A DNA stretch of 64,000 bases from Octopus vulgaris (lineage: Eukaryota): the NCBI GenBank assembly GCA_951406725.2, contig OX597818.1:108438001-108502000 (forward strand), in the 5' to 3' direction. The notes under the pieces were generated by a model. That model was not told the origin of the DNA. It saw only the letters and a program-made list of their open reading frames with translations, and made no database searches. The first letter of the stretch is position 1, and every line of letters begins with the position of its first letter. Below are positions 2,411 to 59,654 of this stretch, one piece after another. Made by a program: the position numbers and the translations under genes.

Positions 2411-3159
2411 ATGGGAAGATAGTGAGTGAGTGTATCTGTGTGAGTGTGCATATCTTTTTGTGTGTGTTTCTCTGTGCCCATGTGTATGTTTCTCAATATG
2501 ATGTATTACCATTGGTTAAAACAACAATGGTAATTTAGGCAATCGACAAAATATAGATTGCTAGAATTTATACAAAACTGAAATAGATGTTATGACTGAC
2601 TAAAAACCCTGAAGCCGATGCCCCAGGATGCTTCGAGTTGAATATCTGGAAACAGAGGAGAGAACAATGTGTGGAGAGAGAAAATATAGACACAGAGAAA
2701 TGTATGAATGTAAATATATGTATGTACGAAAGTGAATAGAAAACAATTTTTATGCTGTATATGTGATTATGTGCATAAAAAATAAACAAAAGATATAGAT
2801 GTGTGTGTATATATGTGTAGATGTGTGTGCATGTATGTGTATATGTGAATATATGAATAAAGCCATCAGTTTTTACATACAGATAAAAAGTGTAAACAGA
2901 CAGGTTTCTATAGACATACACACATAAAAAACTATAGCACACAGATACACACACACACATGTGCACATACACGCACACACACACACACACACACGTGCAC
3001 ATACATGCACACACACACACACGTGCATGCACAATTACACCCAATTTTGGAGTTTCATCCTATATATTTCAATTTGTACCAAAAACAGAAAATTATATTA
3101 TTCCATTATTTCTCAACCCAAGACGCAGTTCTCAAGCTAATGAGAAGGTTAGTGTGAAA

Positions 3160-8842: not shown

Positions 8843-10888
8843 TCATCATCATCGTTTAACGTCCGCTTTCCGCGCTAGCACGGGTTGGACGGTTTGACCG
8901 GGTCTGGGAAGCCAGGGGCCGCTCCAGGCTCCAGTCTGAATCTGGCAGAGTTTCTACGGCTGGATGCCCTTCCTAACGCCAACCACTCCGTGAGTGGATT
9001 GGGTGCTTTTACGTGCCACCTGCACAGGGGCCGGAGGGTCCGGCATCGTCACGATCGGTTCGAGCATTTTAACGTGTCAGCGGCACGGGGGCAACGAGGT
9101 CCGGGGTACTTTGGGGATCGGGGTACTTTGGGGATCCAGGGTACTTTGGGGATCCGGGGTACTTAGAATGGGTAGGGGGTATGTGGAATTGCTGCAGAAA
9201 GCAGCCCGGGTCTTTGTAGTCACAGCATATCTCCAGAGATCTCGGTCCTTCGCCATTGCCTCAGTGAGGCCCAATGCTCTGAGGTCATGCTTGACCACCT
9301 CATCCCATGTCTTCCTGGGTCTACCTCTCTCCCTGATACCTTCAACTGTTTGGGAGTGGCACTTCTTCACACATCTCTCTTCATCCATCCGCAGCACATG
9401 ACCATACCATCGCAAGCGTCGCTCTTGCACACCACATCTGATGCTTCTTATATCCAGCATTTCTCTCAGGATACTTACACTCTGTTTTGCGTGCACACTG
9501 ACACTACACATCCAGCGGATCATGCTAGCTTCATTTCTTTCAAGTCTACGCATGTCTTCTGCAGTCACAGCCCATGTTTCATTACCGTGAAGCATGGCAG
9601 TTCGCACACATGCATCATACAATCTACCTTTTGCTCTGAGGGAGAGACCTTTTGTTGCCAGTAGGAGTAGGAGCTTTCTGAACTTTGCCCAGGCTATTCG
9701 TATTCTAGTGGTGATACTCTCTGTGCATCCACCTCCGCTACTAACTTGGTCACCCAGGTAGCGGAAACTATCAACTACTTCTAGTTTCTCTCCCTGGAGT
9801 GTGATGGAATCTGTTTTCTGAGTGTCTGTTGTGTCTATTGTCCCTGTGCATCTGCCGCACATGAAAGCTATCTTATCTGTTAATTTCCCTTTAATGTTGC
9901 TGCACCTCTTATGTGTCCATAACTTACATTGGGTGCATCTTATGGAGTTTCTACCTGTACCTTTCCTACAGGTTGAGCAGGGCCACCTACCCGAGGGGAT
10001 GTGTGCTGAGTACCTCTTGCTGCTTACTAATACTTTGGTCTTTGCTACATTTATTCTAAGGCCCTTTGATTCCAACCCTTGCTTCCACACCCGAAATTTC
10101 TCTTCTAGTTCCGGTAGTGATTCTGCTATGAGAGCTAGGTCATCGGCATAGAGGAGCTCCCAAGGGCATCCCGTTTTGAATTCCTCTGTTATTGCCTGAA
10201 GGACTATGATGAATAAAAGGGGACTGAGGGCTGAGCCCTGGTGCACACCTACTTCTACCCGGAATTCTTCACTATATTCGTTGCCAATCCTAACCTTGCT
10301 GACAGCCTCTCTGTATAGAGCCTGTACAGCCCTTATTAGCCATTCTTCAATCTCCAGTTTCCGCATCGACCACCAGATAAGGGAACGGGGAACCCTGTCA
10401 AAGGCTTTCTCCAAGTCTACAAAAGCTATGTAGAGGGGTTTATCTTTAGCTAGGTACTTCTCCTGCAGTTGTCGGACCAGGAATATAGCATCAGTGGTGC
10501 TTCTACCTGGTACAAAACCGAACTGCATTTCATCTAAACAAATTCTCTCCCTAATGAGATTGGTTATGACCTTCTCTGAGACCTTCATCACCTGGTCCAA
10601 CAGTTTGATACCTCTGTAGTTATTTCTATCTAGAGCATCACCCTTACCCTTGTAGCAGTTGACTATGGTGCTGCTGCACCAGTCATTGGGTATGACTCCA
10701 TTGTGAACTACCTGGTTTACAATGCGGGTGACTATGGCATAGCCCACATAGCCAGCTGTTTTAAGCATCTCAGCAGTGATTCCTGATAGGCCAGGGGCTT
10801 TGCCTGGTTTCGTATCCTTAATTGCCTTATCTACGAGGGAGCTGTCTATTCGGGTAGCTGGTCCCTCTACTGGGTCAACATTTGGGTG
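8843..10888 (-). mobile_element. 5'-truncated young RTE-clade LINE
   Basis: Uninterrupted RT frame, 3'UTR shared with the dispersed tails, (GAT)n terminus at 8843-8852, CpGs retained; no APE domain present. Confidence 0.95.
9077..10886 (-). CDS. RTE LINE ORF fragment: reverse transcriptase, PHD-like finger and C-terminal RRLRWYGHV domain
   Basis: Motifs KGKGD..NYRGIKLL, QFGFVPGRSTTDAIF, FVDLEKAFDRVPR, GVHQGSALSPLLF, LLYADDL, FRYLG, RRLRWYGHV, GRPRKTW. The frame stays open upstream of the ATG at 10768 (…KPGKAPGLSGITAEM). Confidence 0.95.
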
Positions 10889-11008
10889 GTTATAATATTT
10901 AAATTTGAATCAATTAACAGAGGGACACAGACATGTTTGTCATTGTCGTCATCTAGCATACATTTTCCAGCTTAACAGGAACTGACAAGTCAAAAAATGA
11001 CACCGTTA

Positions 11009-54790: not shown

Positions 54791-55186
54791 GTAGTAGTAG
54801 TTTGATAAATTAGGTTGGTTTTGTTTTGAGTGAAGATGAAGTATATCTAAAACTTCTTTACTCCCCTAAATACTCATAGATTTGCAGCAATTCTCAGGTC
54901 GGAATATTCCAGTTGAAGAATAAATACTTGAATGTAGACTGCCGATCAAAACAGCTTTTTTAATTCAAAGTCTTTTAAAGTTAATTTCATGAGATAATAA
55001 AATACTTTGCGAGCTCAGTTGTTGTAACTTATTTTTGCTTATTGTTGTGAAGTTTTTAGCAGAACGATATCTTTCATTTTATTGGTTTTTTTTAGCAAAA
55101 TAAAAACGATTTAGGCATGTTAGACTTACTGGTTAAGTCTGACCCTTTGCTGGCAGACCATTTGAATACTCGAGCAAACAATTATA

Positions 55187-55420
55187 TATTTCTTTACTAC
55201 ACACAAGGGGCTAAACACAGAGGGGACAAACAAGGACAGACAAACAGATTAAGTCGGTTACATCGACCCCAGTGCGTAACTGGTACTTAATTTATCGACC
55301 CCGAAAGGATGAAAGGCAAAGTCGACTTCGGCGGAATTTGAACACAGAACGTAACAGCAGCTGAAATACCGCTAAGCATTTCGCCCGACGTGCTAACGAT
55401 TCTGCCAGCTCGCCGCCCTA
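55187..55420 (-). mobile_element. SINE family B, young
   Basis: Full length with CpGs retained. Confidence 0.9.
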
Positions 55421-55847
55421 ACAAATATAGGTGGATATAATTAGGGCCCGTCTAAAGCAACATGCCAGAAATTCGTCGATCTGACTGGATCCCGTATATT
55501 GGATCAGCTTACCTGTGAAGGGAAAGTACAATCGTTATTCTGTTTTATTAGACTTTACTCTAGATATATCCAATGCAGAACAACTGACTGTGACAGAGCG
55601 ATGGGGTGGGTTGCGTGGACAGTTGAAAGATTTGTGAAGTTTTGGAGTATAAAAGGTAATAGTGCCAAACTGTTCGTTCAAACGTTTACTTGACTTTTTA
55701 ACCAGAAAATAACATCGATTTGAATGACTGATCTGGCCAATATTATGAGCAACGTGTGTTGTGATCTACAACTACGGATTAAAGTGCTGAGTGAATGTGA
55801 AAATTACGTTCCATGCTTTTCCATTCACTAAATGTTGTCAATGAGCG

Positions 55848-58610
55848 TGTAGTGATCCGACAACGGCGCGCGCTCGCGCACCGCCCATTTGTATTTCGCG
55901 CGTGTTGGTGCCTTTACCAAGGCACAGAAAGGAAGGCCCCTCTCGCGCATGCGCGAACCACCGGTAGCACGACCCTATTGCCTACGTAGCAGTTAGCGAG
56001 GCAAGGGGGTCGTAGAACGTTTGACCGCTAGCAGCAGCAGCAGCCAATGACTTGGGACCCAGCGATTGACGGCGACAGTCACGCATATATTCTCTCCGTC
56101 TGAACTGATTCTAGCAGTCCTTTGGCCGAAGTCCTTACCAAATTGTTGCAGACCAACATCGTCTCCATTGTTCGACGCTATCTTGACCCCTTTCTGGTTT
56201 TAGGGCTGGACATTGTAAATATTACAATCTATTAACTTATCAGCGGTGCGCGCCCGAACCTAGGACATCAGATAACACACTTATTGTTATTGTTTACCAA
56301 GAAAGAGAATAAAGTAGTTAAATGTATATTTTACGTCTGCGTCTTGTTGTTTCTGACTTGTAGAATTCTGGATAATTAACGAACGAGTGAGAGTGATTGC
56401 TTTGTGCACCCCAAAAGTGCACGAGGATATTCACACTTCACACTAAGTTTGTTTCACTGGTGACCCCGACGTGATTCTGGTCTAAAACCAGAGATCACTT
56501 ATCAACAAAAAAAAATCCAGTTTTTCTGCGAAGTCAGAACACGATTTAACTCTACGCATTCATCTTTCGACGATTTGTTTTCCGGCCACCACAAAGTTGT
56601 AGAAGGAGCCTCTTTCTTATTCTACAGCCATGATGACGAACGCCATCACATCATCGATGCCTTTTCTCCACCTTCGTCATCATCATCGTCGTCTGTCTAC
56701 TTCACGTCGTCGCTATCTTCGTCGCCATCATCACTAAGAACGATGTTGTCCCAAGTCCACTACAGTCGCCTTCCACCACCAACGTCGCCTTTCAACACCG
56801 TCGACCTCCACCAAGATGTACATAGCAACTCGCGGAACTTTAGCGTGCACGCTGTTTGTGCATATGCACACCAAGGATAAACAGCACCGTCTATCTACGA
56901 GATTCTTCTGTTCCAGTTAACCTGTCACAGCATTGAAGCCACAACCGCTACACGATATGTGTTCAACCGGCATCTGCATTTTGTGATTTCAACATTTCTG
57001 TTACAGAACGAACTGCTATTGTACATCAGGCTATTACAGACTGGTAAATTAATTCTTGTCTGAAATAGCACTCGAGAGACATTTTTTCTATGCGCTGTAT
57101 TTTTTGTATTTTGCTCGCATTCACCTTGTATGTATTTCTGTCGCACACACGTACACACACATAAATGCTCTCTCTCACATACATACGTCACACATGCTTT
57201 TCTCGCTTGTTTTTTCCATGCTAAATTTGCCTTTTGTGGACACCCCTCATTTCTATAGACCCTAGCGGTCACGTATACATAGAGAGGGTTGTTTGTCCAT
57301 TATAACGCGCCAGCATGTCATACCTTTGTTCCTGTACGAATGAGGCATATAATCGCTTAACCACTGGCATATTCTTGCTGTTTTTTGGTCTGGCAAGCAC
57401 TATTGCATTTCATGCGCCTTTTGCATCGCACGTGTATTGCCTTGTTTTTTGCAACACGTTTGCGTTAGCCTAATTCTTTTCCCGACTCATAGACGTCGGA
57501 TGTTCAAATGCGCTGCGCCGATTTATAGGCGTAATTATTTTTCCCTGTTAGACCACTGTTGGTCACGTAATTAACAGAAAATTATCTGTGTCGCGCATCA
57601 TACCGGCATGTTTGCACTTTTGCCTTTTGTGTTACTAGCGATCTTCTGTCAATTCCATTTTCCTCTCCTGCAGCAATTGATTTAACTGCTATTTTGCAGG
57701 ATCAACTACCTTTAGAGAAGTTGGATTTTAATTTCGCCTAGGTACATTAACTGTGAGTTTTGCTTTTCCCTCCGCTCCTTTCAGCGGAAGGGTTTATACT
57801 TTTGTGACGTATACACTTTCATGCATGCACTCTTGATTTTTGCTCATTAAGTATTTTTTCTCTTTTTCCTTTAGTAAATTTCTTGTGTATGTTATAAATT
57901 TTGCCATTATATTATTGTGTGCTATTTGGTTATCTGGTGTCCACCTTGAGTTTTGCAGTCACTACAATAAGTTTCCTTTCGTGCGTACGCACTGGAGGGG
58001 AGCCTGTAGTGATCCGACAACGGCGCGCGCTCGCGCACCGCCCATTTGTATTTCGCGCGTGTTGGTGCCTTTACCAAGGCACAGAAAGGAAGGCCCCTCT
58101 CGCGCATGCGCGAACCACCGGTAGCACGACCCTATTGCCTACGTAGCAGTTAGCGAGGCAAGGGGGTCGTAGAACGTTTGACCGCTAGCAGCAGCAGCCA
58201 ATGACTTGGGACCCAGCGATTGACGGCGACAGTCACGCATATATTCTCTCCGTCTGAACTGATTCTAGCAGTCCTTTGGCCGAAGTCCTTAACCAAATTG
58301 TTGCAGACCAACATCGTCTCCATTGTTCGACGCCATCTTGACCCCTTTCTGTTTTAGGGCTGGACATTGTAAATATTACAATCTATTAACTTATAGCGGT
58401 GCGCGCCCAGAACCTAGGACATCAGATAACACACTTATTGTTATTGTTTACCAAGAAAGAGAATAAAGTAGTTATATGTATATTTTACGTCTGCGTCTTG
58501 TTGTTTCTGACTTGTAGAATTCTGGATAATTAACGAACGAATGAGAGTGATTGCTTTGTGCACCCCAAAAGTGCACGAGGATATTCACACTTCACACTAA
58601 GTTTGTTTCA
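55848..58610 (+). mobile_element. Complete non-autonomous LTR retrotransposon (Gypsy-type ends, LARD/TRIM-like)
   Basis: LTRs 55848-56456 and 58005-58610 (TG...CA, about 8 small differences), TSD AGCG, PBS TGGTGACCCCGACGTGAT at 56458-56475, PPT GGAGGGGAG at 57994-58002. No gag/pol ORF in the 1.55-kb interior. Confidence 0.95.
56458..56475 (+). promoter_or_regulatory. Primer-binding site complementary to tRNA-Trp 3' end
   Basis: 18-nt reverse complement of ATCACGTCGGGGTCA-CCA, the metazoan tRNA-Trp(CCA) 3' end as recalled. Confidence 0.85.
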
Positions 58611-59654
58611 AGCGTAAAGTTTCTTTGAATTTCTACACAATTTCTTTTGCTTCTATTTTTACTTATGGCATTTCCTTTGTGTGATGTCTATTTGTCCATC
58701 TGGTCATATTCATTTGCCCGTTGTGAAATGAATGCTATATTCCAGGTGATTAGTAGGAGCAGCAAAAATTCTTTCACACAGCTTTTCTGTTGGAAAATAT
58801 GTCTGGGAAAAATGTTCCAAATAACACTGATCAGATGAGAGAATGTTGATGACAGGCTTGTGCTTGATTTTCAACAATGGATTTAGAAATAGAAATAATG
58901 GTCAAACCACTGTGTTTTCTAGCAATGTTCTGGCCAGTTTGTGCGCTTTATGAATCCGTGTGTGGATATATCCAACTATGCTGTCGACTTTTCTGATATT
59001 CAGCAAGAAAAAAAACAAGAATCTGACTGAATGTGAAGATCATTAACAATAAACTCGAAGAGTACACATTCAGGTAAGGTAATTTAGAAGGTACCAACAC
59101 TTTTGTCCCAAGTTTAAAGGTCGAAATATTTATTATTATTTTCAACAATGGATTTAGAAATAGTTTCTGTTTTATGTCAGATCAAAGCGCCAGAAAGCAT
59201 ATAAAGGGATGAGGCTTATGTTTAAGTACCTTTTATCAGCTCCAGTTGTTTAAATCCGAAGAGTGAGGTCATTAAAATCATGTCAAATCATTCCAATAAC
59301 ATCCAGGAGAAAGTTTCAGTGAAGAATTTACGTTGTTTATAGAACTGCTTAAAATTTGTGTTGCTTCTGTTATTGGTGCCAAAAATGAGACTGTGAAGAA
59401 TTACAGTTTTACTGACATTTCTTTGGAGATTATAAAACATCCTCTGCATCTTTGTCACTCATGATCACCTTCAGAGGGGTGTAAAAGTGGAGTGGGGGGT
59501 CAAAAGCAGTGGTGGTCTGTAGATAAAATTAGTTGGGGTGTTGCTTCAGAAAATTTTTAGCCGTTGTTTTAATATTGTGTAAAAGGAAACAAACATATAA
59601 AAAGAAAATTTATATGTAAACCTGATTGGTTCATGTTTTAGCCACTGCCAGTCG

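What the first reader, a model, noticed from the sequence alone, without database searches (positions are those of the whole stretch)
55844..58614. Young, structurally complete LTR element with no coding capacity
609/606-bp LTRs differ at only about 8 sites and are CpG-rich. The 4-bp TSD, 18-nt tRNA-Trp PBS and PPT are intact, but the 1548-bp interior has no gag, PR, RT, RH or IN motif, only a Ser/Pro-rich 101-codon frame and T-rich sequence. Inference: a recently mobilised non-autonomous (LARD/TRIM-like) parasite of a Trp-primed Gypsy element whose interior may carry packaging structure or captured sequence.
Basis: partly seen in the sequence, partly recalled or inferred. Interest (0 to 1): 0.7.

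Follow-up and report, generated by a model that had tools for sequence, protein, structure and literature searches.

The report
Helper-swapping parasitic LTR retrotransposon family
This is a recently inserted copy of a non-coding jumping element found at 54 or more places in this animal genome; it likely borrows the enzymes of a related coding retrotransposon, and its relatives carry the same middle part inside ends taken from different coding families, a helper switch so far described mainly in plants.

Summary
The structure is real: 609/606-bp LTRs (3 substitutions, 5 indels), AGCG target duplication, 18-nt tRNA-Trp PBS, PPT. It belongs to a family of at least 54 copies, and this insertion is absent from two other samples. 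The likely helper is a co-resident Gypsy lineage ('A') with CsRN1-clade features. The added result: the same interior also occurs inside LTR/PBS/PPT sets of other helper subfamilies and of a separate family 'C' (Pol 78% identical to A), with crossovers mapped and six transposed recombinant copies; the pol remnant is a mosaic of helper subfamilies. Such helper switching is known in wheat, soybean and beet; my six literature searches found no animal Gypsy case. No function for the interior was shown. The scan had not noted this sequence before.

The parts
55844..55847 (.). 5' target-site duplication (AGCG)
   Evidence: the empty allele holds it once
55848..56456 (+). 5' LTR, 609 bp, CpG-rich first half, AATAAA at 56308
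   Evidence: 70-91% identity in pieces only to 29 of 30 coding A loci
56458..56475 (+). 18-nt primer-binding site for tRNA-Trp
   Evidence: coding copies match only 9-12 of the 18 nt
56476..56595 (+). 5' leader homologous to that of coding lineage A
   Evidence: 70-85% identity
56640..57170 (+). segment homologous to the middle of a different ~1-kb solo-LTR family ('B') and to the 5' leader of some coding A1 copies; stops before B's AATAAA
56575..56880 (+). Ser/Pro-rich stop-free frame (101 codons from TTG); likely a by-product of low-complexity sequence
57175..57630 (+). unassigned core shared by all related non-autonomous subfamilies
   Evidence: no match inside 20 coding loci
57631..57662 (+). 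35-nt RNase H fragment, joined to the next part at a short microhomology
57646..57815 (+). frameshifted pol remnant (RNase H-integrase linker, Pol residues about 607-660), of helper-subfamily A type
57829..57993 (+). 3' UTR homologous to coding lineage A
   Evidence: 77-80% identity
57994..58002 (+). polypurine tract
   Evidence: same tract in coding copies
58005..58610 (+). 3' LTR, 606 bp
58611..58614 (.). 3' target-site duplication (AGCG)

Best explanation
This is a young, polymorphic copy of a non-coding LTR retrotransposon family that is likely copied in trans by the Gag and Pol of a co-resident CsRN1-type Gypsy lineage (A), and whose wider lineage has exchanged its ends with several helper families, likely by template switching in shared particles. 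Steps: (1) shown: LTRs, Trp PBS, PPT, 4-bp duplications at many separate sites; (2) inferred: transcription from the 5' LTR to AATAAA in the 3' LTR, packaging with helper RNA, tRNA-Trp priming, integration by helper integrase; (3) shown: one origin of the interior from an A1-type coding element (shared microhomology deletions), then further loss of integrase sequence; (4) shown: recombinants that carry the interior between A-, A1-, A2- or C-type LTRs, and A-type tracts written over the A1-type pol remnant; (5) inferred: reverse transcriptase switches between parasite and helper RNA at short homologies, so the parasite gains the helper's promoter and priming signals. The pol remnant is most likely a deletion relic that also serves as a switching site.
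For: At least 54 interiors on 17 contigs. Exact 4-bp duplications at 22 of 26 delimited copies by script, one more with one mismatch, and the other three visible (4 of 30 loci were dropped because their ends were not found). LTR-LTR divergence median 0.66%, 9 of 26 at or under 0.5%. Empty allele as one 1389-nt contig in runs X3 and X5. Only 2 of 20 coding loci fetched share LTR pieces and both UTRs, and both are lineage A. A has PR-RT-RH-IN order, CHCC Gag in 10 of 11 loci, Trp PBS, 4-bp duplication in 12 of 12 A and C loci. Of 30 loci, 23 carry the core plus pol remnant: 10 with A-, 7 A1-, 1 A2-, 5 C-type LTRs. C-LTR copies sit among A-LTR copies in the core tree and on the A side (100/100) of the remnant tree; 6 loci are 98-100% alike across the 3' crossover, which lies in a short shared motif; their LTR is 92-94% identical to three integrase-bearing C loci. 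At 5 diagnostic sites in the first 152 nt of the remnant, all 24 A-, A2-, C-LTR and window-type copies carry A letters at 4 or 5 sites, whereas the last four sites further on are A1-type in all 10 of them that retain that part. Distances between parts of window-family copies correlate at 0.18-0.45 against 0.68-0.90 for odd/even controls.
Against: No coding copy with the window's LTR was found: 29 of 30 A loci match it only in pieces, mostly 73-77% over ~330 nt, so the present helper is inferred from UTRs and the remnant. Co-packaging and trans-mobilisation were not observed. The 514-nt remnant tree keeps the 16 non-autonomous rows together (91/89), and the AU rejection for the 152-nt part (p 0.0013) was run after the tree had been seen. 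Each genome search scored only 40 candidates, so sampling of subfamilies is partial. Transcription rests on one run that is only guessed to be RNA.
Confidence: 0.8

Rival explanations
1. The retained pol piece or the unassigned core is a selected cis element (packaging or dimerisation signal), which is why every shortened subfamily keeps it.
For: All 26 window-type interiors tested hold the remnant; two shortened subfamilies end at different places just behind it (about 3128 and 3136-3140 of the A interior); interiors vary less than LTRs (0.038 against 0.106); a 9-bp hairpin is predicted there in most A-type copies.
Against: The hairpin is broken in coding A1, A2 and C copies and shows no clear compensatory change; its 50-nt bin is the most variable of the interior; L198 lacks most of the remnant and L208 all of it, though each was seen once; no Rfam family; folding z-scores are patchy.
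Confidence: 0.2
2. The window family now depends on another Trp-primed family (C, D, or the unseen coding partner of LTR B), having drifted away from A.
For: Its LTR is only about 75% like A's; C and D are young, with long open pol frames and near-identical LTRs; the lineage has switched to C at least once.
Against: Its UTRs, LTR pieces and remnant all match A best; no C or D LTR similarity was seen.
Confidence: 0.12
3. The mosaics arose by DNA-level gene conversion or ectopic recombination between genomic copies, not by template switching in particles.
For: Sequence alone cannot tell the two apart; the wheat paper names both routes; tandem LTR-interior-LTR-interior-LTR copies show DNA-level events here (3 seen).
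Against: Both LTRs, the PBS and the PPT side were replaced together, with crossovers at motifs of a few bases between families whose Pol is 78% identical, and the product then transposed to six sites.
Confidence: 0.1
4. The interior encodes a functional Ser/Pro-rich peptide.
For: A stop-free stretch of 90-163 codons occurs in the first 520 nt of 26 of 26 copies.
Against: No ATG start in the window copy, no Pfam match; the longest ATG frame ranges from 52 to 149 codons among copies; the region is low-complexity sequence shared with solo LTRs. Selection on the frame was not tested.
Confidence: 0.03

Closest known systems
Wheat RLC_Angela non-autonomous subfamilies that switch helper (PMC9744471; passages and section 3.2 read)
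   Same: Non-autonomous interiors whose LTRs group with a different autonomous subfamily; template switching or gene conversion proposed.
   Different: Plant Copia elements with a whole degenerate CDS; here an animal Gypsy with a short chimeric interior and crossovers mapped to the base.
[quoted passage not shown] 2010, Plant Cell 22:48; seen only as a reference title; not held)
   Same: By its title, LTR exchange that renews the partnership.
   Different: Details not read; plant system.
Sugar-beet modular non-autonomous LTR families (bioRxiv 10.64898/2026.03.01.708851; passages read)
   Same: Mid-sized non-coding elements, tandem three-LTR copies, remnants of coding domains, modules shared between families.
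   Different: Plant; most families there lack a traceable partner, whereas this one has one.
Mouse ETn/MusD (PMC6466679; passages read)
   Same: Non-coding animal LTR element with traces of its coding progenitor, more numerous than it, insertionally polymorphic.
   Different: Betaretroviral ERV; trans-mobilisation was shown by experiment; the passages read describe one helper group only.
CsRN1 clade of Ty3/Gypsy (PMC2582038, PMC6238403; passages read)
   Same: Helpers have Trp PBS, 4-bp duplication, CHCC Gag; the clade is well represented in cephalopods.
   Different: The passages read describe no non-autonomous derivative.
Animal TRIMs, including Helenus and Ajax (PMC10886601; part 1 of 6 read)
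   Same: LTRs, PBS, PPT, no protein; animal Helenus makes 4-bp duplications.
   Different: TRIMs are under 1 kb there; no tRNA or 5S sequence was detected in this LTR.

Membership tests
Non-autonomous LTR retrotransposon | two LTRs with TG...CA ends, PBS and PPT | tested here: met
Non-autonomous LTR retrotransposon | no Gag or Pol coding capacity | tested here: met
   only a frameshifted remnant
Non-autonomous LTR retrotransposon | amplified as such, with separate target duplications | tested here: met
Non-autonomous LTR retrotransposon | mobilised in trans by an autonomous partner | not testable with these tools
   inferred from shared ends and recombination tracts
TRIM | under 1 kb (PMC10886601; beet preprint) | tested here: not met
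   2763 bp; it fits only the beet preprint's length-free use of the word
LARD | over 4 kb (beet preprint) | tested here: not met
   2763 bp
LARD | conserved RNA structure in the interior (recalled) | tested here: inconclusive
   no alignment-wide covariation test was run
CsRN1 clade (helper A and C) | tRNA-Trp PBS | tested here: met
   9-12 nt match in 12 of 12 loci
CsRN1 clade (helper A and C) | 4-bp target duplication | tested here: met
   12 of 12
CsRN1 clade (helper A and C) | Gag CHCC motif CX2HX9CX3C | tested here: met
   10 of 11 A loci, 4 of 6 C loci
CsRN1 clade (helper A and C) | PR-RT-RH-IN order with GPY/F motif | tested here: met
CsRN1 clade (helper A and C) | RT groups with CsRn1 and Kabuki in a tree | not tested
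   no reference sequence was fetched
LTR retrozyme or Helenus/Cassandra type | hammerhead ribozyme, tRNA or 5S sequence in the LTR | tested here: not met
   three weak unrelated Rfam hits, E 0.17-3; no tRNA in the window

The most novel reading that the evidence does not exclude
A non-coding core behaves as a free-standing parasite of several Gypsy families in an animal: it keeps a ~150-nt piece of pol as a selected packaging or switching site, through which it repeatedly re-arms itself with the promoter, primer site and ends of whichever helper is active, much as SINEs swap LINE tails.
Probability: 0.2. Interest if true: 0.65.

Novelty: new member of a known kind. Interest (0 to 1): 0.42.

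Why it matters
How non-autonomous LTR elements find and keep a helper is open even in plants (the beet preprint calls the mechanism unclear). This genome holds a compact natural record: one marked interior, a nested series of deletions, four LTR types, base-level crossovers and still-segregating insertions. It shows exchange between a parasite and two Gypsy families 22% apart in Pol, and makes the rules of co-packaging testable from sequence and from native particles. It also warns that LTR-based family names and LTR-based dating can mislead for such elements.

Tried and rejected
Single-copy deletion derivative: rejected. Spread by segmental duplication: rejected, flanks and duplications differ. 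Spliced-RNA origin of the joined pol pieces (the remnant begins with a pyrimidine tract and CAG): rejected, the joints lie in 5-6-nt microhomologies present on both sides in the coding element. Decayed gag in the interior: no hit under E 0.04 outside the remnant and the 3' UTR when 17 frames of 4 coding elements were searched against 26 interiors; the core has no match inside 20 coding loci. Ribozyme or small-RNA promoter: none. L208 as a remnant-free family: only one copy found. Pattern count of the deletion joint gave 41 places but looks capped, so it is no copy number; summed contig depths are no copy number either. Du et al. 2010 is not held. Repbase and Dfam could not be searched, so the family may already be catalogued there. 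No supplements were opened.

Full report
Observation. The element runs from 55848 to 58610 with AGCG on both sides. The LTRs are 609 and 606 bp and differ by 3 substitutions and 5 indel events; their CpG observed/expected ratio is 1.15 against 0.48 for the window, and the 1548-bp interior is 34.8% T. The 18-nt PBS is the complement of the 3' end of a genomic tRNA-Trp(CCA): the pattern search gave 33 places, and ARAGORN called a tRNA-Trp in 1 of the 4 loci fetched. The 101-codon frame starts at TTG inside a 138-codon stop-free stretch and has no Pfam match. The genome is 2.8 Gb in 227 contigs; earlier scan notes call it an octopus (unchecked), which fits the microsatellite-rich window and the report that CsRN1 elements are common in cephalopods (PMC6238403, passages).

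A real family. The interior search scored 40 of 744 candidates and all 40 were near full length, the 39 other than the window copy at 92-98%; a search with the LTR end added 14 more, giving at least 54 interiors on 17 contigs. Of 30 loci, 26 could be delimited; a script found exact 4-bp duplications in 22, one mismatch in one, and the other three show the duplication in the outputs. LTR-LTR divergence has a median of 0.66% (range 0-9.9%). No substitution rate for this animal came from a call, so I give no age. The insertion is polymorphic: runs X3 (organism A) and X5 (organism B) each have one 1389-nt contig whose letters 1-455 lie on the left flank and 451-1389 on the right flank; X2 shows the same on the left flank, the only side laid. 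Run X12, only guessed to be RNA, covers the 20 bins of the element and none of the 10 flank bins; this is a hint of transcription of some copy, strand unknown.

Variation within the family. Among 25 copies the LTR is nearly three times as diverse as the interior (0.106 against 0.038). These copies were chosen by interior similarity, but copies chosen by the LTR end show the same direction (whole LTR 87-94%, interior 92-98%). Pairwise distances of different parts correlate at only 0.18-0.45, against 0.68-0.90 for odd and even columns of one part, which points to frequent recombination among copies.

The helper. I took 20 of 150 integrase hits, chosen mostly for long frames. Two (L105, L106; lineage A) share LTR pieces, the 5' leader (70-85%), the 3' UTR (78%) and a pol piece with the element. 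Lineage A has about 40 near-complete integrase regions at 88-100% identity among the 40 scored of 327 candidates, in at least three LTR subfamilies (A, A1, A2). A and a second family C (Pol 78% identical) show PR-RT-RH-IN order, GPF, the CHCC Gag motif (10 of 11 and 4 of 6 loci), Trp PBS and 4-bp duplications (12 of 12): the features that PMC2582038 gives for the CsRN1 clade (passages). No RT tree with reference elements was made. Against this assignment, no coding copy has the window's LTR: 29 of 30 A loci match it only in pieces, mostly 73-77% over about 330 nt.

Anatomy of the interior. It is a chimera. After the A-type leader, window 56640-57170 is 70-80% like the middle of a separate ~1-kb solo-LTR family, ending before that LTR's AATAAA; 24 of 25 window-type interiors have no AATAAA. 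The same segment lies in the 5' leader of coding copies L170, L171 and L175, so the direction of capture is unresolved. About 450 nt have no match inside 20 coding loci. Then come a 35-nt RNase H piece and a 165-nt remnant of the RNase H-integrase linker, 86% identical to A and frameshifted, present in 26 of 26 interiors tested. The joints lie in 5-6-nt microhomologies, not splice sites. The 3' UTR follows.

The wider lineage. One hit of the helper search (L176) turned out to hold this interior followed by the whole integrase region, 96% identical to an A1 copy. Searching with it gave 30 loci: 23 with core and remnant, 1 with core alone, 6 with the core inside another repeat (part of the output was cut, and the LTR types of those rows come). 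The 23 share the same joined pol pieces, so they have one origin, and they form a nested series of integrase deletions down to the window type. They carry four kinds of LTR: A (10), A1 (7), A2 (1) and C (5). The C-LTR copies are the clear case. Their cores fall among A-LTR cores and their remnants on the A side of a 100/100 branch; their LTR, PBS side and last ~110 nt of 3' UTR are C-type, with crossovers 50-70 nt behind the PBS and at a short shared motif in the 3' UTR. Six loci are 98-100% alike across that joint; the five examined have LTR pairs 97.6-99.5% alike and four show their own duplications; the LTR is 92-94% identical to three integrase-bearing C loci, within a range of 79-95% over the 18 full-length matches among 19 C-type loci.

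The remnant records contact with helpers. For 514 nt the 16 non-autonomous rows form one group next to A1 (91/89), but for the first 152 nt one group is rejected (p-AU 0.0013; tested after seeing the tree). At 17 sites that separate coding A from A1, the six A1-LTR copies are almost wholly A1, whereas the 24 other copies, the window type included, have A letters at 4 or 5 of the first 5 sites; the 10 of them that keep the longer piece are mixed (9) or A1 (1) in the middle and A1 at the last four sites. A-type tracts were thus written over an A1-type remnant.

Mechanism. From established knowledge of LTR replication (as summarised in PMC10886601), the element needs only an LTR promoter, R, PBS, PPT and ends that integrase accepts. 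Template switching between co-packaged RNAs (reviewed in PMC6894440, passages) explains the microhomology deletions, the tracts and the joint replacement of both LTRs. Co-packaging itself is inferred; DNA-level conversion is the rival. I found no support for a packaging structure: no Rfam family, scattered z-scores of -2 to -3 with most windows near zero, and a hairpin in the remnant that is broken in coding A1, A2 and C copies and lies in the most variable bin.

Comparison and verdict. Helper switching through LTR transfer is described for wheat Angela (PMC9744471), modular reshuffling for beet, and LTR swapping for soybean (title only). In animals, ETn/MusD is the tested parasite-helper pair, and non-coding LTR families without a known master are reported in Culex (PMC3286476, passages). 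Six searches found no description of this family or of such switching in an animal Gypsy; the library lacks most subscription journals, and Repbase and Dfam were not searchable. PMC10294476 (passages) added nothing on this. The element is a new member of a known kind; the lineage is a well-resolved animal example of helper switching. Interest 0.42.

Noticed in passing
L241-L246 (e.g. G000:C24:16848000-16857999); loci L204-L207, L209, L210, L217-L240 in part: The element's leader and core (without the pol remnant) sit inside an unrelated 2-3-kb repeat that occurs in tandem units, at 25 or more sites at 92-98% identity; the unit ends resemble a rolling-circle (Helitron-like) element (label recalled, untested).
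   Followed up: partly
L141-L160; L163 (G000:C2:104267000-104272000): A ~1-kb solo-LTR family 'B' (618 search candidates; exact 4-bp duplication in 6 of the 10 loci where both ends were found, 19 examined). One locus has two such LTRs around a ~195-nt interior with a Trp-type PBS, a true TRIM-like form. Its coding partner was not found.
   Followed up: partly
L001-L030, PBS: The C run of the PBS varies among copies (4 to 6 C, or an extra T or G), and coding copies match tRNA-Trp over only 9-12 nt while most parasite copies keep about 18; this may record copying of the primer tRNA and slippage at the second strand transfer.
   Followed up: no
L001-L030, flanks: The base two places before the target duplication is T in most copies, suggesting an integrase site preference; not counted against a control.
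   Followed up: no
L257 (G000:C12:68564983-68568273): A further C-LTR recombinant whose 3' crossover lies about 30-60 nt upstream of that of the other six: a second switch or a later exchange.
   Followed up: partly
L166-L168: Three tandem LTR-interior-LTR-interior-LTR copies; in L166 the second and third LTRs share a ~200-nt deletion that the first lacks.
   Followed up: partly
window 55183-55417: A 235-bp repeat of extremely high depth in DNA runs, SINE-like, 430 bp upstream of the element.
   Followed up: no
window 9077-10909 (-): A 610-codon LINE reverse-transcriptase frame with a weak PHD-finger match inside it (residues 310-353, under the cut-off).
   Followed up: no
G000:C6:58.38-58.46 Mb: Sixteen clustered matches to the tRNA-Trp 3'-end pattern, probably a tRNA gene array.
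   Followed up: no
L091-L110: Several young Gypsy families with pol frames over 1000 codons: at least three with CHCC Gag (A, C, D) and one with CCHC Gag.
   Followed up: partly
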